Positions 33,645 through 43,636 of a DNA stretch of 64,000 nucleotides are shown here, in pieces (position 1 is the first letter of the stretch; each line of letters opens with the position of its first letter). The DNA lies in contig JBAQFO010000009.1 in the NCBI GenBank assembly GCA_049287305.1, positions 108,558 to 172,557 on the forward strand, in the 5' to 3' direction. The DNA is from Minisyncoccia bacterium (lineage in GTDB: Bacteria > Patescibacteriota > Minisyncoccia > Phycocordibacterales > UBA9973). Below the pieces are notes generated by a model. It was given only the letters and a program-made list of their open reading frames with translations, was not told the origin of the DNA and made no database searches. Position numbers and translations under genes: made by a program.

Positions 33645-35375
33645 TTACCCAAAGGTAAAAGTAAATGCTTGTAATCCAGCCTTAGGTATCACAATCTTGA
33701 GAGTGTGTTTCCCATAATCTGTATCTTGTATAAGCGGATAGAGTGTCTCGTCTTTGATAATTACTTTTTTTACAAATACATTGTCTTTGTAAATTTCGAC
33801 TTCAACACCCTGTGATGACCCCGCTGTAATATACACATTTTTTGCTTCGTAATTAAACACAACACTTCCAGTAGTTTTATTTTCGGCATATTCGGAAGTT
33901 ATATCCCATGTACCACCAAGGTATAGCTTATTAGAAGATATAGTTGATGGAGGGGAGAAAACTTGCTCACCTGAAATACCATTTTTGCCATTTGCGAGTA
34001 AGCTATTTCGTGCTGATCCAAAATATATTTCAGGACTTTTTACTTTGCTAAATTCCACAACTGTCACACTTTCTGGTTTGGATGTATTTGAGGACACCTC
34101 CAAATTCACATTTAACCTATCCGCTCTTTCTTTTAATGCTTTTTGTATCTCACCCTCTGTTTCTTTGTATTGACCCTCTCCTGCGTGATCGTAGACAATA
34201 TATCCATCTATGTCTATAAGATACTTCCGAGGCCAGTATTGATTCTTATATGCCTGCCATGTAGAGAAATCATTATCGAGTACAACAGGATATTTTATAT
34301 CAAATTCTTTTACAGCTTTTTCTACATTCTTTTGAACTTTTTCAAAAGAAAATTCTGGAGTATGCAGCCCGATAATGACAAGCCCCTCATCTTCATATTC
34401 TTTATACCACTCGTTTAGATACGGAATAGTGCGTTGACAATTGATACAGCTATACGTCCAAATATCTAATAGCACAACTTTTTTATCCTTGAATTCACTT
34501 ATAGTTATTGGTAGATTATTTGTATTTACTAAACCGTCGGGAGTGCTAATGTCTGGCGCTAAAGTAAATTTTTTGCTTTTCTGTTCAAGTGTTAAGTAAG
34601 TATTTTCACTTGTGCCTGAGGAGTTATTTATGCTTGTATCATTTTTATCTTTTTTTTCTAACAATATTTGCTCAATTTTGGTAACGTCTAAAAATCCCGC
34701 ATCAAGAAGACTGATTTGGAGTTTCTTGTCATACCCAGAAATAATAGCAACTGCTACTAAAATAAAAATGCCACCGAAAATCTTTTTAAACCAGCCTCTC
34801 GGATCTGAAACTTTTCCAACTCTTGCCATAATGCGTTCACCTAAAACAGCAACCACAATAAGTGCAAGTGATAAACCTAAAACATAAGTAAAAAGATAAA
34901 TAACTCCCAAGAAAAACGATACGGGTAGGACTGTGGCTAGAATGACAAAGTATGTCGGGCTACAGGCAGAAAATATAGGTCCAAGCGATGCGCCAATTAT
35001 GGCATCCCCCAAAATACTATTCTTTTGGTATCCTTGTGACAAAACCCTGTTTGACTTTAGAGATAGCATATTTGCAAAAGAAAATCTTTCCCAGATGCTT
35101 GGGAAAATCATAGTGACGCCAAAGAAGAATATAATCCCGCCGGAAATCCATTTCCAGAAATCTTGTGGAATATCAATCAATAAAGAACTTGCTTTAAGGA
35201 TAAGAGTAAAGAGTATGACAGAAATCCCAAGCGCCGTCACAACCACAAATAACCTTCTCCTGTTCGGGCTAGTATCTGTAATTGAATGCCCAACAATAAC
35301 AGGAAGCAACGGTAGAATACACGGTGCAAGCACCGTCAGTACCCCAGCGATAAATGAAATCAGGAGAAGCAACAT
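33645..35375 (-). CDS. DsbD/CcdA-family thiol:disulfide interchange membrane protein fused to a C-terminal thioredoxin-like (TlpA/redoxin) domain
   Basis: Multi-TM N-terminal half with paired Cys (LAPCILP...ACSP) and a C-terminal thioredoxin fold with WTYSCINCQRTIP (CxxC). Confidence 0.7.
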   Translation of the reverse strand: MLLLLISFIAGVLTVLAPCILPLLPVIVGHSITDTSPNRRRLFVVVTALGISVILFTLILKASSLLIDIPQDFWKWISGGIIFFFGVTMIFPSIWERFSFANMLSLKSNRVLSQGYQKNSILGDAIIGASLGPIFSACSPTYFVILATVLPVSFFLGVIYLFTYVLGLSLALIVVAVLGERIMARVGKVSDPRGWFKKIFGGIFILVAVAIISGYDKKLQISLLDAGFLDVTKIEQILLEKKDKNDTSINNSSGTSENTYLTLEQKSKKFTLAPDISTPDGLVNTNNLPITISEFKDKKVVLLDIWTYSCINCQRTIPYLNEWYKEYEDEGLVIIGLHTPEFSFEKVQKNVEKAVKEFDIKYPVVLDNDFSTWQAYKNQYWPRKYLIDIDGYIVYDHAGEGQYKETEGEIQKALKERADRLNVNLEVSSNTSKPESVTVVEFSKVKSPEIYFGSARNSLLANGKNGISGEQVFSPPSTISSNKLYLGGTWDITSEYAENKTTGSVVFNYEAKNVYITAGSSQGVEVEIYKDNVFVKKVIIKDETLYPLIQDTDYGKHTLKIVIPKAGLQAFTFTFG

Positions 35376-35376
35376 A

Positions 35377-36240
35377 TTATTTTACTTCAGATACAAGAGC
35401 AGAAAGAGTTGGACTACCACTCCATTTCTTAATCATATTTCCATCCTTGTCAACTTGCACAAATGTATGCTGATAAGTAACACCGTACTTTTGCTTGAGC
35501 GCAGTAGCGGTATCATAATTAATATCAAGAATAGTGAGGTTCGAAGGAATTTGGGAGAGATTAGCTTTAATATCAGAGTCTACTGCTCGACATGTCGGGC
35601 ACCAACTTGCTCGGAAAAATAAAACTACATCATTAGTAGTAGAAGCTAACATAACTTTCTCTGATGCATAAGATTCATACGAACCGGCTTTCATCATTGT
35701 GTCGCTCTTTTCCATCATGCTTGTCGCCTCTTTTCCTATCATTGCTCCAAAAAAATCTTTGGGCAGATTCCCGCCAGAAACGAAAGTTTTTACTTCGTCT
35801 TTTGATTTATGCACCATCACAGTTAGGGGCAACTTTTCACCCAATGTTTCCAGCGAGACATCAAGAATCGTCTCTGCCTTGCCGTTCACAACTGCACTTA
35901 AAGGATATACGATCGCACCCGGCGCTGAATATTCGCCTACATGAATATGGGATGGCTGAGGAACACCAGTAACACTTCCGGAAACTTCAACCATAACCTT
36001 TGTCTTTCCACTCATCTCGGAGAAAGTGGCCTTACCTGCCTGCCCTGAAGCATTTAACGCACTCAATGTCACCACTATATCTTTTTTCATCATGGACTGG
36101 TCATCTTCCACCACCACCTGTTGTTCCATTTTTTCCTTCTCCATAATTACATCATTTTTGTTACTCATCGATGAATAGATTCCACTTATCACAACTACCA
36201 ACGCTATAATACCAATAACAATTCCAGTGCTTTTACTCAT
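35377..36240 (-). CDS. Membrane-anchored thioredoxin-domain protein with a possible CHRD-like domain upstream of it
   Basis: N-terminal TM, a middle segment PSHIHVGEYSAPGAIVYPL (possibly CHRD-like, weak), and a C-terminal thioredoxin motif FFRASWCPTCRAV. Confidence 0.55.
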   Translation of the reverse strand: MSKSTGIVIGIIALVVVISGIYSSMSNKNDVIMEKEKMEQQVVVEDDQSMMKKDIVVTLSALNASGQAGKATFSEMSGKTKVMVEVSGSVTGVPQPSHIHVGEYSAPGAIVYPLSAVVNGKAETILDVSLETLGEKLPLTVMVHKSKDEVKTFVSGGNLPKDFFGAMIGKEATSMMEKSDTMMKAGSYESYASEKVMLASTTNDVVLFFRASWCPTCRAVDSDIKANLSQIPSNLTILDINYDTATALKQKYGVTYQHTFVQVDKDGNMIKKWSGSPTLSALVSEVK

Positions 36241-36290
36241 AAAATAATAAGTTAATTAATAATGATAATAAACAAAGTCTACACAATAAC

Positions 36291-36324
36291 AAAACGAATG
36301 TAAAGTCTGCTTTACATTCGTTTT
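36291..36324. terminator. Perfect 13-bp-stem palindrome (bidirectional terminator-like) carrying the ATGTAAAG-N4-CTTTACAT motif
   Basis: aacgaatgtaaag-tctg-ctttacattcgtt flanked by an A-run and a T-run. It shares both 8-mer half-sites with the XRE operator at 36931-36954. Confidence 0.5.
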
Positions 36325-36339
36325 GTGGATAACTATATT

Positions 36340-36726
36340 TTAGAGGTTTTTATCGCTCCAAATTCTGGTAGTAATTTTAACAATTATAATAACTATTAAG
36401 GCAATAACTAACCAAGGATCTACAGAATGGGAATAACCTTGAGTAACAATACCCAACATGAGTATTGTTGATCCAGCCAGAAATGCATTTCGTCCAGCGA
36501 GCGAGCGATGAAGACTATCTCGTTCATCAAATATTTTTTCTCTCAAAATAAAATTCGCGAATATACCAAAAAGTACAAGTGCGAAGGCAAGCATAATCAT
36601 AACTATCATGTCTGGCATCCAAAAGTGAAAAGGGTTTAAAAGAAGTATAGCTATCACAATAAGGAAAATAGTTACTATTATTTCCGTTATATTATTTTTC
36701 ATAAGATATTTTAAATATTTTTTCAA
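36340..36726 (-). CDS. Hypothetical small multi-TM membrane protein, overlapping and co-oriented with the XRE regulator gene
   Basis: Three predicted hydrophobic helices. Its start overlaps the XRE gene by about 35 nt, so the pair probably forms a two-gene module. Confidence 0.5.
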   Translation of the reverse strand: MKKYLKYLMKNNITEIIVTIFLIVIAILLLNPFHFWMPDMIVMIMLAFALVLFGIFANFILREKIFDERDSLHRSLAGRNAFLAGSTILMLGIVTQGYSHSVDPWLVIALIVIIIVKITTRIWSDKNL

Positions 36727-36910
36727 CCGGCGTTTTAAAAAAGCTGGCGATTTTTATTGCTAATAAAACTGAAGGGGTATAATGCCCCTTCTCTAAGGCA
36801 ACAATGGTTTGACGACTGACATCAACATTAGAAGCCAGGTTTTCCTGGGTTACTCCTGTACGTAAACGTAATGCCTCAACTTCATTTTTAATATATTCTC
36901 GCATTAACAT
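36692..36910 (-). CDS. XRE-family (Cro/C1-type) helix-turn-helix transcriptional regulator
   Basis: LRTGVTQENLASNVDVSRQTIVALEKGHYTPSVLLAIKIASFF is the canonical HTH_XRE; the protein is 72 aa. Confidence 0.8.
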   Translation of the reverse strand: MLMREYIKNEVEALRLRTGVTQENLASNVDVSRQTIVALEKGHYTPSVLLAIKIASFFKTPVEKIFKISYEK

Positions 36911-36930
36911 TATTATACATACTAAACGTG

Positions 36931-36954
36931 TTATGTAAAGTTATCTTTACATAA
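36931..36954. promoter_or_regulatory. Palindromic operator (TTATGTAAAG-ttat-CTTTACATAA) upstream of the XRE gene
   Basis: 10-bp perfect inverted repeat with a 4-nt spacer, 20-45 nt upstream of the XRE start and next to a TATAAT element (reverse strand 36912-36917). Confidence 0.5.
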
Positions 36955-37080
36955 GTAAGCCCTGAAGTATTTGAACTAAATGACTAGGTCATATTTTATC
37001 AGGTGACTCGGACGGTTCGTATATTGGAACCTCCATCCCAAAAAGCGTGCGGTAGATTGCATGTTTTTTTATTATTGTTG

Positions 37081-37470
37081 TTATTTTTTTCTTTTTATTG
37101 CCTTGGTTCCGGTTGTAGCTTTCTTTACTTTCTTGACTGCCTTAACTGTTTTGCCTGAAATTTCTTTCCATTCCCCTTTCAATTTTTTAGCTATAGCCTT
37201 GATATCTTCCCCGTGAAGCTCGTACTGCTTGGCATAATTTTCTGAAATCATATCAACCGCTTTGTTGTAAACCGGCATACTTACCTCTTTGGCTTTTTTT
37301 ACTTCTTTTTGCACTTCGTTTTTTATTTTAGACACCAGTGCCTTCGCTTTCTTTTGATGCGCTTTTCTGTTGGGCCCGAGCAAATAATACGCTCCCGCGC
37401 CAATCACAGCTGCGCCTGCCGTTGCGACCGCCATCCCCTTCCTGGACACTTTTTTGTTATCTTTTTTCAT
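37081..37470 (-). CDS. YtxH-like (DUF948-type) Lys-rich small protein
   Basis: N-terminal GMAVATAGAAVIGAGAYYLLGPNRK Gly-zipper helix followed by a K/E-rich coiled coil. Confidence 0.45.
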   Translation of the reverse strand: MKKDNKKVSRKGMAVATAGAAVIGAGAYYLLGPNRKAHQKKAKALVSKIKNEVQKEVKKAKEVSMPVYNKAVDMISENYAKQYELHGEDIKAIAKKLKGEWKEISGKTVKAVKKVKKATTGTKAIKRKK

Positions 37471-39943: not shown

Positions 39944-40638
39944 TTAAAATCTATCTTTATTCCTAGTTTTTTATAGTAATTCAAATGATGACTTATCACG
40001 ACCAAAACTTCATCGTGGGCTTTCTTGTGGCCACTTTCCTTTAATACGTTAAGCAGCCGGCAGGCGGTCCGAACAGAGGTTCTTTCAACAATTTTTTTAA
40101 CTGACTCTTTGTTTTCACTTAACCCTTCTGCAAATACTAACGCAAAATGATTTCCCTGAATCGTATCGATTAACTTAGACACTAAAGCTTCTAATTTGGT
40201 TATTTTTTCTATAGGCTTTTCAAAATCCTGGAAATAACCTCGGAGTTTGCGGGAAGTTTTAAAAGGAAGAAATTTTGTTATTCTTTCTATTTCTTTTTGC
40301 TCCAAAAGATGCTTGTTTATGCCATCTCCATTTATTTGCCTAAATTGAGAAATATCTCCAATAAAAGTTTCTCCCATGTCATGACTCCACACCCGCTCGT
40401 AAATCTCTCTGGTATCCACTAACGCTCTGAGTGCCGGGCAGACATCCTGGAGAGTTAGCCAGAATCCTATACATGCCCACTGGTGAGCCAAGATGGATTC
40501 ATTCTTTCCTGCTATAATATTTTTTTGCATCCATGGAACCCCTCCCCAGCGATAAGACCAGTTACCTTCATAATTGTCCGCCATAAATTTATAAATGGTG
40601 TTGAGAGATTTATTGAGTTGAGAATTTACTTTTTTCAT
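39931..40638 (-). CDS. HD-domain phosphohydrolase (YfbR-like 5'-deoxynucleotidase family)
   Basis: H...HD....E..GD pattern: ILAHQWACIGFWL...VWSHDMGETFIGDIS. Confidence 0.55.
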   Translation of the reverse strand: MKKVNSQLNKSLNTIYKFMADNYEGNWSYRWGGVPWMQKNIIAGKNESILAHQWACIGFWLTLQDVCPALRALVDTREIYERVWSHDMGETFIGDISQFRQINGDGINKHLLEQKEIERITKFLPFKTSRKLRGYFQDFEKPIEKITKLEALVSKLIDTIQGNHFALVFAEGLSENKESVKKIVERTSVRTACRLLNVLKESGHKKAHDEVLVVISHHLNYYKKLGIKIDFNYSK

Positions 40639-41195
40639 TATTTATAGTCAGGCTTGGGTTCTTCTTTCCCCTCAAGGTGGCTTGCTATCCTTGCCAGTGC
40701 GTATAGCAAGCTTGAAAGCCTGTTGAGATACGCCAGAGTATCAGCGCTCACGGATATCTTTCCTTCTTCTTTGGCGGCAATAACCCTTCTCTCCGCTCGG
40801 CGAGCCAAGGTCCTGGTTATATCAAGCACGGCGCCATCTTTGGTTGCGCCGCTTATGAAGAAATTTTTTATCGGCGGAAGGATTTTTTCTATTCCGTCCA
40901 CTATATTTTCTACTCTGGTTATTTTTTCTTTATCAATAGAAAGGTTAGCCCCAGCCACTTCGGCTTGCACAATAAATAAATTTTGTTGCACTTCTAGAAT
41001 AAGTTCCCCAAATTCAAGTTTCCCTTCTCCTGTTTCAAAATATTTTCCGGTAGTTCTGGCTCTCGCCAGTCCCAAAAAAGAGTTGGCTTCATCAAGCGAG
41101 CCAAGCGCTTCCGCCACAATAGAACTTTTAGAAATGCGCTGGTCGCACCCAAAAGTCTTTGTAGTTCCACTATCTCCTTTTCTAGTGTAGAGCAT
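40638..41195 (-). CDS. pduO: ATP:cob(I)alamin adenosyltransferase, PduO type
   Basis: MLYTRKGDSGTT...(PduO/MMAB N-terminus TKTGDKGETSL-like) and a helical bundle with a conserved RRAER region. Confidence 0.8.
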   Translation of the reverse strand: MLYTRKGDSGTTKTFGCDQRISKSSIVAEALGSLDEANSFLGLARARTTGKYFETGEGKLEFGELILEVQQNLFIVQAEVAGANLSIDKEKITRVENIVDGIEKILPPIKNFFISGATKDGAVLDITRTLARRAERRVIAAKEEGKISVSADTLAYLNRLSSLLYALARIASHLEGKEEPKPDYK

Positions 41196-41329
41196 ATTAA
41201 TATTTTAGCATAAACTCTTCGCGGACGTATTTTTTAGAATGCCTTGCGCAGGCTGACGAGCCGAGCAGTTCGCTGGGATAGCAATCCCAGACAGGTTGCA
41301 TTATAAAAAATATGCCAAGAAGAGTTGGG

Positions 41330-43636
41330 TTAGATTTCGCAAACTCCAGAGACACAAGCGAATTCTTTGGCACCGGTAGTGTTGTCCATTGCTTCGTATT
41401 GAGAAAGCTTGGAAAAATCTATTTTACCGATAGCCCGAGCCCGTTTTTCATATTCTTCCTTGGTGATAGCTTCGTAGGGAGCAAGTTTGTACACATGCTC
41501 GGAGCGCGGAAGAAAAGAAAGTCCTCCTATCCAATCCCAGTTTTCGTATACGAAGTTGCCTACCGCAATCCACTCATCCGGGCCCACATAAATTGTCGCT
41601 GAAGGGTTGTGTTCCACGAAGTGCTCTTTAAGCCTTTTCCATTCTTTCATAAGGTCAAGCGCCGATACTTCATCTTTAAAGATCGCTCCAGGTGGCGCCT
41701 TAACCGGAAATTCCAATACAAAGGTAGTAGCTGTTGCTTCGGTCTGGCCATTTTCCGGCACGCAAGGAACTCCTTGGTCGCGGGCCATCTGAAGGAGCGT
41801 GTCGGTGTGGGAAATTCGCACACGACGTATAAAGTAAGGAGCAAACCAAGGGTGCATTCCGGAACCTACTCCCAAAAGTTGGCCGGAATTTCCATGAGGC
41901 TTTACGCAAGTTATTGCGGTGGAAGGATTTATGCCGAAGCGCTTTGCGTATTTTTTGTTGGTTTCAACAGAGTCCGCTTTTAATGTATCCAGCATTTTAT
42001 CATTTCTGATGATAGGGTTGTCGTAATATCCTGTAAGAGATACGCCGAGCAGTCTTTCTTCTTCACAGTTCTCTTTCCATTTCTTGGAAAGGTATCCGAA
42101 GTTGGTAAGTGTGGACTGGTAAGTTCCGAGCAATGTCGCCAACTCCATCTTTCTCTTGAGAGTCGCCGCGGTATCTTTAGGTCGAATAACTATGCTTGTC
42201 AAATTACAAAATTGTTTGGAACGCAAATAAATTTCTCCGCATGGATTGAGCCCCATCTGTCTTTCATCTTTTATCGCCGCCCATCTTCGCGCAGGCACTT
42301 GTTTTTCCAAGCCAGCTCGATTGAAAATTCCTCTTTCGCCTGATTTGGATTTCACCAACGCTGTCCACTCATCCAAAAATTCTTCAGCTCCAGGCTTAGC
42401 ATTGTAAACCGCGGAATTGTTTGCCATTGAACGCTGGTCTTCGGTCAAATAAAATTGTCCCTTCTTCGCGTCTCGCATTTCGGTATCTTCCAGTTCGGAG
42501 AGAGAGATAAGAGCGCTTCTTCGCACGCCTCCAGCGACAACAATCATTCCAATTTTACAGATGACATCATGCATGTCTATATTGGAAAGGCGTCGTCCTT
42601 GTTTTGCTAAAATTTTTCTTTTCGCAAACTCCATCAAGTCTATCAGCGGTTGCGGTCCTGAAGCTTTTCCTCCGGCTGTTTCCAATCTTGAACCCGCCGG
42701 TCGAATTTGAGAATAATCAAACACCATGTCTCTCCCATCAAACCACGCGGTAAGACCCATAACGAAGGCGTCTGCCCATCCTTCTTTACTGTCTACAACC
42801 AGATGAGTAGCTGGCTTTTCTTTTGTTTGTTTTTTTATTTGCGGAAACTGCTGAACATTTTCCCACTCTACGGCAAAACCAAGTCCCGCTCCGCACATTG
42901 ATATATACATTATTTCACCCAAGTCCTGAGGGCAGGTTGGAGCAATATATGAGCAGTTGTATGCCCAAACGTTGGATTGTCGGCATGCCTTGCCGGAAGA
43001 CCACAGAAGCCTCATGGAAGGACAGATATCTTGATTAAGTATAGCTTGCTTCACTTCCTCGTATTCTTTGGCTGTAAGCTTATTCCCAAGGTTTTCCTTC
43101 ATGTAGTCCATGTAACGCTCTATGGTCTCTATCCAGGTTTCGCGGCGGCCAAGCTCAGGCACCCAGCGGGAGTAAAATTGATAGAAGATATATTCAGAGT
43201 ATGGGCTGGAAAAATACTTACTGGATTCTTCCACCGCCGCCCGAACAGATTCGGAAACGGGACCAAAGGTAGCCCTTAGCTCTGAGCGCTTGTTTCTGTA
43301 TAAAATATATTTTTTCGCGGTGTCGGTAAAACCATCTTTCATTAATTCTTTTTCCACGAAATCCTGCACTGACTCCACGGTCGGCAAAAATTTTGCTCCT
43401 TTGTTTGTGTTTATAAGTTCCGTGCGTAATCCAAGAAGTGTTTTAAAAACATTGTTCGCAACTTTTTGCGCCGCTTCTTCTCCTCCCTCACCTGTCACCT
43501 CAAAAGCTTTGAAAACTGCGCGAGCGACTCTTTCTAACTCAAAAGGAACGACTTCTCCCGTTCGTCTTCGGATTGTTTTTATTTTCGCCAAGTCGCTTTT
43601 TGAAATTTTCTCGCTCGCTTTTGTTTTTGTTTTCAT
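41330..43636 (-). CDS. nrdJ: Adenosylcobalamin-dependent (class II) ribonucleotide reductase NrdJ with N-terminal ATP-cone
   Basis: ATP-cone (IRRRTGEVVPFELERVARAV), RNR active-site region NPCGEIYLRSKQFCNLTS, and C-terminal Cys pairs. Co-operonic with the pduO-type adenosyltransferase. Confidence 0.85.
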   Translation of the reverse strand: MKTKTKASEKISKSDLAKIKTIRRRTGEVVPFELERVARAVFKAFEVTGEGGEEAAQKVANNVFKTLLGLRTELINTNKGAKFLPTVESVQDFVEKELMKDGFTDTAKKYILYRNKRSELRATFGPVSESVRAAVEESSKYFSSPYSEYIFYQFYSRWVPELGRRETWIETIERYMDYMKENLGNKLTAKEYEEVKQAILNQDICPSMRLLWSSGKACRQSNVWAYNCSYIAPTCPQDLGEIMYISMCGAGLGFAVEWENVQQFPQIKKQTKEKPATHLVVDSKEGWADAFVMGLTAWFDGRDMVFDYSQIRPAGSRLETAGGKASGPQPLIDLMEFAKRKILAKQGRRLSNIDMHDVICKIGMIVVAGGVRRSALISLSELEDTEMRDAKKGQFYLTEDQRSMANNSAVYNAKPGAEEFLDEWTALVKSKSGERGIFNRAGLEKQVPARRWAAIKDERQMGLNPCGEIYLRSKQFCNLTSIVIRPKDTAATLKRKMELATLLGTYQSTLTNFGYLSKKWKENCEEERLLGVSLTGYYDNPIIRNDKMLDTLKADSVETNKKYAKRFGINPSTAITCVKPHGNSGQLLGVGSGMHPWFAPYFIRRVRISHTDTLLQMARDQGVPCVPENGQTEATATTFVLEFPVKAPPGAIFKDEVSALDLMKEWKRLKEHFVEHNPSATIYVGPDEWIAVGNFVYENWDWIGGLSFLPRSEHVYKLAPYEAITKEEYEKRARAIGKIDFSKLSQYEAMDNTTGAKEFACVSGVCEI

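What the first reader, a model, noticed from the sequence alone, without database searches (positions are those of the whole stretch)
36291..36954. XRE regulator - small membrane protein cassette bracketed by two copies of the same palindrome ATGTAAAG-N4-CTTTACAT
The 20-bp palindrome occurs at 36933-36952 (in the promoter region of the XRE gene, overlapping a TATAAT element) and again at 36298-36317 (inside a perfect 13-bp-stem hairpin just past the membrane-protein gene). Identical half-sites and spacing at both ends of a 0.64-kb two-gene unit suggest the HTH protein binds at both sites, which would allow autoregulation plus a downstream roadblock or looping. Alternatively the unit is a small mobile or phage-derived cassette delimited by inverted-repeat ends. 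XRE paired with a tiny multi-TM protein is also a recurring regulatory architecture that senses membrane signals.
Basis: seen in the sequence. Interest (0 to 1): 0.5.

Follow-up and report, generated by a model that had tools for sequence, protein, structure and literature searches.

The report
Repressor operon with two shared operators
A small DNA-binding repressor and its membrane partner, conserved across many ultra-small (Patescibacteria) bacteria, appear to use one palindromic DNA site twice: once to control their own promoter and once to control the neighbouring operon for repairing oxidised proteins outside the cell.

Summary
ATGTAAAG-N4-CTTTACAT occurs exactly twice in 64 kb (36298-36317 and 36933-36952), with 0 of 100 shuffles giving two matches. 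Two details were off. The hairpin stem is 17 bp, not 13. The upstream palindrome overlaps the -35 box, not the TATAAT.

In 81 loci from different Patescibacteria, 68 have the site over the -35 of the regulator's promoter. 76 have a second site just after the membrane-protein gene, and 68 of those are the perfect 20-mer. That second site is the -35 of a conserved promoter (TTTACA-17-TATACT). In 65 of 68 loci this promoter drives a membrane-anchored thioredoxin, a CcdA/DsbD-type reductase or MsrB. Its flanks co-vary as a hairpin, so it probably also terminates the regulator operon.

The regulator is 43% identical to CylR2 of Enterococcus, which works with the membrane protein CylR1. The cyl operator has a near-identical half-site that also serves as a -35.

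My best reading is a CylR1/CylR2-like, phosphorelay-free repressor/membrane-sensor pair that controls itself and an envelope redox-repair operon. It is not a mobile cassette and not a generic terminator. Binding, the direction of regulation and the signal are all inferred. A conserved DnaA-box-like motif beside the second site is unexplained.

The parts
36933..36952 (.). Operator O1: palindrome ATGTAAAG-TTAT-CTTTACAT in the regulator's own promoter
   Evidence: Exact match. An equivalent site with at most 2 mismatches in the 12 core positions lies 46-72 nt upstream of the XRE start in 68 of 81 loci.
36912..36939 (-). Promoter P_xre: -35 TTTACA (36939..36934, inside O1's half-site), 16-nt spacer, -10 TATAAT (36917..36912)
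   Evidence: The promoter scan scores it 11 of 12. The same -35/-10 arrangement is seen in relatives. The -10 lies 7 nt from the ATG at 36904, which suggests a leaderless mRNA (inference).
36692..36904 (-). XRE/CylR2-like repressor gene (70 aa from the second ATG; the ORF also opens at 36910)
   Evidence: HTH_3 E=1.8e-11. Most of the listed homologues are 70 aa. It is 43% identical to CylR2, and the family profile hits PDB 1utx at E=6e-18.
36340..36702 (-). 120-aa four-helix membrane partner; its start overlaps the XRE stop by 11 nt
   Evidence: ORF. The same 120-aa gene was called on the source contig, with a weak PF09946 hit. The same overlap is present in most loci. Invariant residues include N23 P24 W28 M29 P30 and D59-E60-R61. 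The AF2 model has 4 helices at low confidence.
36324..36332 (-). Conserved motif TTATCCACA, identical to the DnaA-box consensus, 6 nt 5' of O2
   Evidence: Exact match. At most 1 mismatch at a nearly fixed offset (-13 to -16, plus one locus at -24) in 49 of 76 loci. Background is 223 such hits in 583 kb on both strands. Function not established.
36289..36326 (-). 17-bp-stem hairpin with O2 at its core, followed by a T-rich tail: probable terminator of the XRE-membrane operon
   Evidence: Terminator scan. Fold energy -23.8 kcal/mol, z=-6.6. The stem extension outside the invariant core shows compensatory changes in 75 sequences. This extension is specific to the transcribed downstream site.
36298..36317 (.). 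Operator O2: palindrome ATGTAAAG-TCTG-CTTTACAT (plus strand)
   Evidence: Exact match. A site is present 560-665 nt after the XRE start in 76 of 81 loci, and 68 of these are the perfect 20-mer. Nearly 100% invariant per position.
36276..36304 (-). Promoter P_trx: -35 TTTACA (36304..36299, inside O2's half-site), 17-nt spacer, -10 TAGACT (36281..36276)
   Evidence: Promoter scan scores it 9 of 12. In relatives the hexamer at this exact position is TATACT in 43 loci and TATAAT in 7, of 76.
35377..36240 (-). Target gene 1: membrane-anchored, Met-rich thioredoxin-like protein (287 aa)
   Evidence: Thioredoxin E=3.3e-10. The first gene after O2 is thioredoxin-like in 56 of 68 loci. The CxxC cysteines are nearly invariant.
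33645..35375 (-). Target gene 2: CcdA/DsbD-type membrane reductase fused to redoxin domains (576 aa)
   Evidence: DsbD_TM, Redoxin and Thioredoxin_10 domains. A homologue is found in 69 of 80 loci, downstream of the XRE gene in 67 of them.

Best explanation
The locus encodes a two-protein regulator without a phosphorelay. One protein is a 70-aa CylR2-like XRE repressor. The other is a co-translated 120-aa four-helix membrane protein. The repressor dimer recognises ATGTAAAG-N4-CTTTACAT. At both sites the right half-site contains the -35 hexamer TTTACA, so bound repressor would keep RNA polymerase off. O1 would give negative autoregulation of the regulator operon. O2 would repress the adjacent operon for a membrane-anchored Met-rich thioredoxin and a CcdA/DsbD-type reductase. 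In other genomes the same operator also precedes Msr genes, a Met-rich secreted protein and a glutaredoxin-like gene. Because O2 lies at the 3' end of the regulator transcript, its palindrome has been extended into a hairpin that terminates that transcript. One 38-bp element is therefore terminator, operator and -35 box at once. By analogy with CylR1/CylR2, the membrane partner senses an envelope signal and relieves repression. The regulon points to oxidative or copper damage as that signal. The partner's invariant outward Met/His/Trp loops are candidate sensors, and its invariant cytoplasmic DER loop is a candidate contact for the repressor. Shown here: the sites, their positions in conserved promoters, the hairpin co-variation, the gene content and the homology to CylR2. 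Inferred: binding, repression rather than activation, the partner's role and the signal.
For: The motif occurs only twice in the window. Both copies overlap promoter-like -35 boxes with correct spacing to -10 boxes. O1 is conserved in 68 of 81 loci and O2 in 76 of 81, across species-level Patescibacteria genomes whose regulators are 66-86% identical. O2 positions are about 100% invariant, while the loop and flanks vary. TATACT or TATAAT sits exactly 17 nt after TTTACA in 50 of 76 loci. The gene after O2 is Trx, DsbD_TM or MsrB in 65 of 68 loci. Extra operators precede a membrane-anchored Msr-like gene (L029) and a Met-rich secreted protein plus a glutaredoxin-like gene (L010, L015). In L010 and L015 the operator lies just downstream of an extended -10, which fits repression only. 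The promoters are near-consensus and should not need an activator. The recognition helix SRQT(I/V) is invariant, as is the operator. CylR2 is the closest solved relative. It represses PLys and needs the membrane protein CylR1 for induction (PMC3709268). The cyl inverted repeat TTGTCAAGTG-T-CACTTGACAA has the half-site TGTCAAG, compared with TGTAAAG here, and its TTGACA also lies 17 nt from a TAATAT. In metagenomes, 59 of 120 contigs carrying the exact 20-mer have an ORF matching the CylR2-like XRE profile nearby (three of these are doubtful over-extended, Hsp20-like ORFs); none of 74 viral contigs does. The hairpin extension shows compensatory pairs (covariation score 0.264 against 0.093 in shuffles, 0 of 500 reaching it; slid controls at most 0.123). 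The extension is present at O2 but not at the untranscribed O1 (mean contiguous extension 4.7 versus 1.0 bp).
Against: There is no binding, expression or transcript-end data for any of these uncultured organisms. The palindrome centre lies near -38.5, which is also the position of class II activators. The membrane partner is not demonstrably homologous to CylR1 (hhalign probability 0.9%). It has no significant Pfam hit in my own scan. About a quarter of O2 hairpins have almost no stem extension, so termination cannot be universal. The half-site spacing differs by 1 bp from the cyl operator. The signal is guessed from regulon content alone. The covariation statistics do not correct for shared ancestry.
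Confidence: 0.65

Rival explanations
1. The XRE protein binds both sites but acts as a class II-type activator. It would contact RNA polymerase from a site centred near -38.5 and switch on itself and the redox operon.
For: The operator centre lies about -38.5 from the predicted start sites, close to the -41.5 position typical of class II activators (general knowledge).
Against: The half-site is itself a good -35 (TTTACA). In variants it drifts towards the perfect TTGACA, and the -10 boxes are near-consensus. Such promoters should be strong without help, and sigma and the regulator would compete for the same bases. In L010 and L015 a third operator covers roughly +1 to +20, just after an extended -10, which fits only repression. 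The homologue CylR2 is a repressor.
Confidence: 0.12
2. A regulator other than the adjacent XRE recognises the palindrome, and its adjacency to the XRE-membrane pair is incidental co-location.
For: Nothing has tested binding. The conserved TTATCCACA next to O2 shows that at least one further factor may act at this promoter.
Against: The motif sits in the XRE's own promoter in 68 of 81 loci. The same 20-mer lies next to CylR2-like XRE genes in unrelated contigs of 28-72% GC, with different partner proteins and gene orders. None of 74 viral occurrences has one. The half-site resembles that of the homologous CylR2 operator.
Confidence: 0.08
3. The downstream palindrome is simply an intrinsic terminator, and the similarity of the two palindromes is chance or reflects -35 boxes only.
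For: It scores as a terminator and folds well. Both copies contain TTTACA.
Against: A terminator stem needs complementarity, not a fixed sequence. Here 16 stem positions are about 100% invariant across 75 species, while the neighbouring stem pairs change freely in a compensatory way. The motif recurs at an untranscribed site (O1). It occurs only twice in 64 kb.
Confidence: 0.03
4. The two-gene unit is a small mobile or phage-derived cassette delimited by inverted-repeat ends.
For: Identical 20-mers bracket a 0.64-kb unit.
Against: Each end is a palindrome in itself, not one arm of a terminal inverted repeat. No transposase or integrase is nearby. The pair stays joined to Trx (60 of 80 loci) and DsbD (69 of 80 loci, downstream of the pair in 67), while the upstream flank (RecG, p129, DUF948) is shared by 0 of 80. 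There is no phage or plasmid DNA match, and no XRE lies next to the motif in viral contigs.
Confidence: 0.02
5. In addition to -35 occlusion, repressor bound at O2 acts as a roadblock to read-through from P_xre, or O1 and O2 are bridged by a DNA loop.
For: O2 lies at the end of the regulator transcript. O1-O2 distances cluster at 642-646 and 655-657 bp.
Against: A roadblock is possible, but the hairpin makes it unnecessary. For looping, the protein is a single 70-aa HTH domain with no evident tetramerisation module. The apparent phasing (Rayleigh p=0.017 at 10.5 bp) comes from clusters of related genomes and is not independent evidence.
Confidence: 0.1

Closest known systems
CylR2/CylR1 regulator of the Enterococcus faecalis cytolysin operon (PDB 1UTX; Haas et al. 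2002 and Rumpel et al. 2004, as summarised in PMC3709268)
   Same: Both regulators are a single ~66-70-aa HTH_3 domain. They are 43% identical, with the same recognition-helix residues VSRQTI. Both are co-transcribed with a small multi-helix membrane protein. Both palindromic operators have a half-site (TGTCAAG in cyl, TGTAAAG here) that doubles as the -35 of the regulated promoter. Both partners have a juxtamembrane K-x-x-D-E-R motif. Neither has kinase or receiver domains.
   Different: The gene order is reversed: XRE first here, cylR1 first in cyl. The partner here has 4 helices and 120 aa, against 3 helices and 94 aa, and homology is not detectable. The half-site spacing is 1 bp shorter. 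The promoters are in tandem with two separate operators, rather than one shared operator between divergent promoters. The target is an envelope thiol-redox/Msr module rather than a lantibiotic toxin. The signal cannot be CylLS''.
YoaS-YozG-type operons (DUF2975 membrane protein plus Cro/C1-like HTH) with upstream inverted repeats (bioRxiv 10.64898/2026.09.15.751765)
   Same: A small XRE/Cro-like repressor is paired with a small multi-TM protein of unknown function, and inverted repeats upstream are proposed as autoregulatory operators.
   Different: That report describes sequence-diverse repeats and only an upstream site. Here the operator is sequence-invariant across a clade and recurs in other phyla. 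A second operator controls a defined target operon. DUF2975 gives only a non-significant hit (E=4).
Extracytoplasmic CcdA-thioredoxin-Msr repair systems, such as Streptococcus pneumoniae CcdA-Etrx-MsrAB2 and Salmonella ScsBCD (from my own knowledge, not checked here)
   Same: The target genes encode a CcdA/DsbD-type membrane electron conduit plus a membrane-anchored thioredoxin. Msr genes carry the same operator in some genomes.
   Different: As far as I recall, those systems are controlled by other regulators. The Met-rich linker and the CHRD-like insert (sub-threshold) are particular to this clade. Function here rests on domain content only.
Lambdoid and 434 Cro/cI-type operators overlapping promoter elements
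   Same: A small HTH dimer binds a palindrome that overlaps a core promoter hexamer and autoregulates.
   Different: There is no phage context. A membrane partner is present. The operator is embedded in a terminator stem.

Membership tests
CylR2-type XRE repressor | Single ~66-aa HTH_3 domain with significant sequence similarity to CylR2 | tested here: met
   The family profile hits 1utx at E=6.1e-18. Pairwise identity is 43% over 65 aa, E=3e-18. HTH_3 E=1.8e-11.
CylR2-type XRE repressor | An inverted-repeat operator overlaps the -35 of the regulated promoter | tested here: met
   This is shown in silico only. TTTACA lies inside both palindromes, with 16-17-nt spacers to -10 boxes. The cyl locus has the same geometry. 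Physical binding cannot be tested with these tools.
CylR2-type XRE repressor | Same operator sequence and spacing as the cyl IR1 | tested here: inconclusive
   The half-site matches at 7 of 9 positions ((T/A)TGT(C/A)AAGT), but the half-sites are 1 bp closer here.
CylR2-type XRE repressor | Co-transcribed with a small membrane protein needed for signal response | tested here: met
   The adjacent membrane gene overlaps the XRE stop by 11 nt, in the window and in most relatives. Whether it is needed for signalling cannot be tested here.
CylR1 membrane partner | Detectable sequence homology to CylR1 | tested here: not met
   hhalign probability is 0.9% (E=0.06), and only 25 columns around the DER motif align.
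CylR1 membrane partner | Three predicted transmembrane helices, ~94 aa | tested here: not met
   The protein here is 120 aa with four helices (4-21, 32-58, 66-90, 96-119) in a low-confidence AF2 model.
CylR1 membrane partner | Juxtamembrane basic-x-x-D-E-R motif | tested here: met
   CylR1 has SKKDERILY. The protein here has REKxxDERD with D59-E60-R61 invariant. 31 of 41 partner ORFs next to CylR2-like genes have DE[RFLQ]. This motif is my own observation, not a published family criterion.
DUF2178 (PF09946) | Pfam HMM match at or above the gathering score | tested here: inconclusive
   A precomputed weak PF09946 hit exists for this protein and for about two thirds of its homologues. My hmmscan of Pfam-A listed no PF09946 hit even at E<=10.
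Intrinsic (Rho-independent) terminator | Stable stem-loop followed by a T/U-rich tail at the 3' end of a transcription unit | tested here: met
   17-bp stem with 5 G-C pairs and tail TATTGTGT. -23.8 kcal/mol, z=-6.6. The T-run at +23..+26 is 72-87% conserved. Compensatory changes occur in the stem extension. Actual termination is untested.
Mobile element with terminal inverted repeats | Transposase or integrase, target-site duplication, variable insertion context for the two-gene unit | tested here: not met
   Neighbouring genes are housekeeping genes. The unit is always followed by Trx/DsbD. No phage or plasmid DNA similarity.
DnaA box | 9-mer matching TTATCCACA (consensus recalled from the E. 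coli and B. subtilis literature) | tested here: met
   Exact match at 36324-36332. At most 1 mismatch at a nearly fixed offset in 49 of 76 loci.
DnaA box | Bound by DnaA; usually occurs in clusters | not testable with these tools
   There is a single box per locus and no cluster nearby. No binding data exist.

The most novel reading that the evidence does not exclude
This may be the first defined regulon of Paceibacteria-type CPR bacteria. A kinase-free transmembrane signalling pair would work as follows. The membrane partner's invariant outward Met/His/Trp loops sense oxidant or copper damage, and its cytoplasmic DER loop captures or releases a CylR2-like repressor. That switches on an extracytoplasmic thioredoxin/CcdA/Msr repair module. 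The same operator (TGTAAAG-N4-CTTTACA) and the same DE(R) partner motif would be the common grammar of a very large, cross-phylum family that includes CylR1/CylR2. This would give a general answer to how CylR1-type proteins signal. In addition, a conserved single DnaA box at about -60 would tie expression of the repair operon to the replication initiator.
Probability: 0.2. Interest if true: 0.7.

Novelty: new variant of a known kind. Interest (0 to 1): 0.5.

Why it matters
Almost nothing is known about gene regulation in Patescibacteria (CPR). These bacteria have tiny genomes and few regulators, and are mostly uncultured. Here comparative genomics alone yields several things. It gives a regulator, its operator and two promoters. 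It gives a compact terminator/operator/-35 element and a coherent target set of envelope thiol-redox and methionine-sulfoxide repair genes. At least 441 species-level genomes carry the regulator.

The system is also a distant, simpler relative of CylR1/CylR2, whose signal-transduction mechanism has stayed unresolved since 2002. The shared operator half-site and the shared juxtamembrane DE(R) motif give concrete residues and bases to mutate. If the membrane partner proves to be an oxidant or metal sensor, this would define a widespread class of one-step transmembrane signalling that does not use phosphorylation.

Tried and rejected
- Rfam scan of 35900-37300: only sub-threshold chance hits (mir-3327, CrcZ, Spy1186876). 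No known RNA family.
- Antisense promoter from O2 (TTTACA-17-TATATT at 36311-36339 on the plus strand): the -10 is not conserved in relatives on inspection. Rejected.
- Terminator-like hairpin inside the XRE ORF (36771-36791): only the window has 7 pairs; relatives have 2-6. Chance.
- Looping: the O1-O2 distance phasing gave Rayleigh p=0.017 at 10.5 bp, but this is driven by clusters of related genomes. Not usable.
- Homology of the membrane protein to CylR1: not supported.
- Pfam and NCBIfam naming of the membrane protein: no significant hit.
- AF2 model of the membrane protein: pLDDT 66. This is too weak for a fold search, so none was run.
- Specificity co-variation between recognition helix and operator: uninformative, because both are invariant.
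- Literature: no paper mentions DUF2178 or PDB 9K3W. Nothing on this regulon in Patescibacteria. Rumpel et al. 2004 (PMC517608) is not held, so I read the cyl operator directly from a plasmid record.
- Phage and plasmid DNA similarity: none.
- Mobile-cassette reading: rejected on synteny.
Full report
**Observation.** ATGTAAAG-N4-CTTTACAT occurs at 36298-36317 and 36933-36952 and nowhere else in the 64-kb window, even allowing two mismatches. The expected number is 0.05, and 0 of 100 shuffles gave two matches. Four of the five CTTTACAT octamers in the window belong to these two sites.

Both bracketed genes are on the minus strand. One is an HTH_3/XRE ORF (36910..36692; Pfam E=1.8e-11). The other is a membrane ORF ending at 36340, whose ATG at 36702 overlaps the XRE stop by 11 nt.

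Three details need correcting:
- The hairpin stem is a perfect 17 bp (36289-36305 / 36310-36326), not 13 bp.
- The upstream palindrome overlaps the -35 hexamer, not the TATAAT. The promoter scan gives TTTACA (36939..36934), a 16-nt spacer and TATAAT (36917..36912), an 11 of 12 match.
- Most homologues are 70 aa (about 80% of the 120 best hits). The true start is therefore probably the ATG at 36904, 7 nt after the -10, which suggests a leaderless mRNA (inference).

**Source and relatives.** The XRE protein is identical to one annotated in a Minisyncoccia (Patescibacteria) MAG. A scan of one genome per GTDB species found 441 stretches encoding a relative. I fetched the 80 best, all Patescibacteria-type MAGs, with 66-86% identity to the window protein.

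**Upstream site (O1).** In most relatives, (A/T)GTAAAG-N4-CTTTACA(T) lies 46-72 nt before the XRE start. Its right half supplies the -35 (TTTACA, or TTGACA in variants), followed by about 17 nt and a TATAAT-like box. Counting the window, 68 of 81 loci have such a site with at most 2 mismatches in 12 core positions. Only 5 of these are the perfect 20-mer.

**Downstream site (O2).** A second site lies 560-665 nt after the XRE start, just past the membrane gene, in 76 of 81 loci. It is the perfect 20-mer in 68 of them. In a position profile of 75 loci, the sixteen specified bases are 95-100% invariant (fourteen of them ≥99%). The four central bases are much less constrained: the outer two show a T/A preference (80% and 63%) and the inner two vary freely. 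I selected sites using the inner 12 bases. The outer AT...AT were not part of the selection and are still about 100% conserved.

**O2 is a promoter.**
- Exactly 17 nt after the TTTACA of O2's right half-site there is a conserved -10: TATACT in 43 loci and TATAAT in 7, of 76. The window has TAGACT at 36281..36276.
- A same-strand ORF starts about 70-90 nt after the site in most loci.
- Of 68 such ORFs, 56 match Thioredoxin, 8 match DsbD_TM and 1 matches SelR/MsrB.
- In the window these genes are a 287-aa membrane-anchored Met-rich thioredoxin (35377-36240) and a 576-aa DsbD_TM-redoxin fusion (33645-35375).
- By tblastn, a Trx homologue is found in 60 of 80 loci, always downstream of the pair, and a DsbD homologue in 69 of 80, downstream in 67. 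The window's upstream neighbours (RecG, a 129-aa protein, a DUF948 protein) are present in 0 of 80.

The conserved unit is therefore four genes: XRE, membrane protein, Trx and DsbD. The second palindrome is the operator/-35 of the target operon, not a cassette boundary.

**O2 is also a hairpin.**
- Outside the invariant 20-mer, the flanks pair: aaaacag/ctgtttt, aaaacga/tcgtttt, ccctcc/ggaggg, gagccag/ctggctc.
- On 75 sequences, the four pairs next to the core show 18-33 two-sided compensatory changes each. The covariation score is 0.264 against 0.093 in shuffles (0 of 500 reach it). Slid controls give at most 0.123.
- The extension is specific to the transcribed site. Mean contiguous extension is 4.7 bp at O2 and 1.0 bp at O1.
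- A T-run follows the stem and is 72-87% conserved.
- In the window the element scores as a terminator and folds at -23.8 kcal/mol, z=-6.6.

I read this as the terminator of the XRE-membrane transcript, built around the operator. It is not universal, because about a quarter of loci have little or no extension. The statistics do not correct for shared ancestry.

**Further operators.** In L029 a perfect core site overlaps the -35 of a promoter for a 394-aa membrane-anchored protein with the MsrA GCFW motif, next to msrA and msrB genes. In L010 and L015 a third perfect site lies immediately after an extended -10 (TGcTATAGT), upstream of a Met-rich secreted protein and a glutaredoxin-like gene. 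That position (about +1 to +20) fits repression only. The regulon content points to repair of oxidised proteins outside the cytoplasm.

**Closest known system.**
- A profile of the XRE family hits PDB 1utx (CylR2) at E=6e-18, and an unpublished 65-aa PbsX-family structure, 9k3w, at E=9e-19.
- The window protein is 43% identical to CylR2 over 65 aa, and both share VSRQTI in the recognition helix.
- CylR2 represses the cytolysin promoter PLys. Induction requires CylR1, a predicted three-helix membrane protein. How the signal passes between them is unknown (PMC3709268).
- I read the cyl promoter from an E. faecalis plasmid. The inverted repeat is TTGTCAAGTG-T-CACTTGACAA. Its TTGACA lies 17 nt from a TAATAT, reading towards cylL.
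- The half-site TGTCAAG differs from TGTAAAG at one base, and the half-sites are 1 bp further apart than here.
- The logic is the same in both: the operator half-site is the -35.

**The membrane partner.**
- It is 120 aa and strongly conserved. Invariant residues include N23, P24, W28, M29, P30, E55, D59-E60-R61, G70, R71 and W97.
- AF2 gives four helices at low confidence, pLDDT 66.
- By the positive-inside rule (inference), the loops NPFHFWMPDMM and GYSHSVDPW face outward. The basic loop REKxxDERDxxHRxLAGRNAF faces the cytoplasm.
- Precomputed annotations give a weak PF09946 (DUF2178) hit. My own hmmscan found no significant family, and NCBIfam found none.
- Homology to CylR1 is not supported (hhalign probability 0.9%). 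The only aligned segment is the shared K-x-x-DER motif.

**The motif outside this clade.**
- 59 of them have an ORF matching the CylR2-like XRE profile nearby; three of these are doubtful (over-extended, Hsp20-like ORFs). 14 have the Patescibacteria arrangement. 19 have the site directly upstream of the XRE. 21 have the order site, membrane-protein ORF, XRE. These contigs range from 28% to 72% GC.
- Of 41 multi-helix ORFs adjacent to these XRE genes, 31 carry a juxtamembrane DE[RFLQ] motif.
- As a control, 74 viral contigs carry the 20-mer and none has such an XRE within 1.2 kb.
- The operator therefore belongs to a broad family of CylR2-like regulators with membrane partners.
- A 2026 preprint notes inverted repeats upstream of the analogous YoaS-YozG operons. 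I found no paper on DUF2178 or on this regulon.

**Mechanism.** Shown here: two conserved sites, each overlapping a -35; near-consensus promoters; a co-varying hairpin at O2; a coherent target set; and homology to a known repressor.

Inferred: the 70-aa protein binds as a dimer and represses by -35 occlusion. O1 sets the repressor's own level. O1 is usually imperfect and so probably weaker, although in this window it is perfect. O2 keeps the redox operon off. The hairpin stops P_xre transcripts from reading into the target operon. The membrane partner relieves repression on an envelope signal, plausibly oxidative or copper stress, given the Trx/CcdA/Msr and Met-rich targets and the partner's invariant outward Met and His residues. 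I put about 0.65 on this overall picture, more on binding and repression and less on the partner's role and the signal.

**Rivals.**
- Activation from -38.5: possible but disfavoured (strong promoters, the +1 operator in L010/L015, and the repressor homologue).
- Another protein binds the site: disfavoured by the cross-phylum association with XRE genes.
- Plain terminator: excluded by sequence invariance beside a freely co-varying stem.
- Mobile cassette: excluded by synteny and by the absence of mobile-element genes or phage/plasmid similarity.
- Looping: no support, since the phasing test is confounded by relatedness.

**Unexplained.** TTATCCACA, identical to the DnaA-box consensus as I recall it, lies 6 nt 5' of O2 (36324-36332, minus strand). 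It is present with at most 1 mismatch at a nearly fixed offset in 49 of 76 loci. The background for such 9-mers is 223 in 583 kb on both strands. It sits about -63 to -55 from the predicted P_trx start. It could be a DnaA site or the site of another factor. I could not test this.

**Verdict.** The second palindrome is better explained as the operator/-35 of a conserved envelope redox-repair operon that also serves as the stem of the regulator operon's terminator. The system is a new variant of the CylR2/CylR1 type of repressor/membrane-partner pair. It is widespread in Patescibacteria and not described in the literature I could search.

Noticed in passing
window 36324-36332 (minus strand): TTATCCACA, identical to the DnaA-box consensus, lies 6 nt 5' of the downstream palindrome. 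It is conserved with at most 1 mismatch at a nearly fixed offset in 49 of 76 related loci. Its role is unknown: a DnaA site, another factor's site, or something else.
   Followed up: partly
window 36904-36917 (minus strand): The -10 TATAAT of the regulator's promoter ends 7 nt before the ATG at 36904, which implies a leaderless mRNA. The same 7-nt spacing is seen in L003, L004, L005, L007 and L025, and most homologues are 70 aa.
   Followed up: partly
window 35377-36240 (minus strand): The target thioredoxin has an N-terminal membrane anchor and a Met-rich linker. In this genome it also has an extra ~130-aa insert with an HIH motif, which gives a sub-threshold CHRD hit (E=0.018). Most relatives are 160-200 aa and lack the insert.
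   Followed up: partly
window 36771-36791 (minus strand, inside the XRE ORF): A terminator-like hairpin (7-bp stem, 5 G-C pairs, T-rich tail) lies inside the regulator's coding sequence. Relatives have only 2-6 of the 7 pairs at the same position, so it looks like chance.
   Followed up: yes
window 36311-36339 (plus strand): A promoter-like site TTTACA-17-TATATT reads antisense into the membrane gene from the other half of O2. The -10 is not conserved in related loci.
   Followed up: partly
L029 about 2326; L010 about 6635; L015 about 2773: Additional operator copies occur in other genomes. One is upstream of a membrane-anchored MsrA-like gene next to msrA and msrB. Others are upstream of a Met-rich secreted protein plus a glutaredoxin-like gene, placed just after an extended -10.
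   Followed up: partly
L093-L203 (metagenome contigs; e.g. L116, L126, L157, L175, L188, L193): The same exact 20-mer lies upstream of CylR2-like XRE genes in contigs of 28-72% GC. These have diverse multi-helix partner proteins in either gene order. 31 of 41 partners carry a juxtamembrane DE[RFLQ] motif, like the KKDER of CylR1.
   Followed up: partly
L042 about 4600 and 4896: In this genome the downstream element is duplicated, with perfect 20-mers at +600 and +895 from the XRE start. Only the second copy carries the TTATCCAC motif, the -10 and the Trx gene.
   Followed up: no
window 37040-37069: A terminator-like hairpin lies between the upstream 129-aa gene and the regulator's promoter. 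This suggests the XRE operon is a separate transcription unit.
   Followed up: no
window 40638-43636 (minus strand): A class II (B12-dependent) ribonucleotide reductase with an ATP-cone sits next to a cobalamin adenosyltransferase, a few kb from the locus. This is context only.
   Followed up: no
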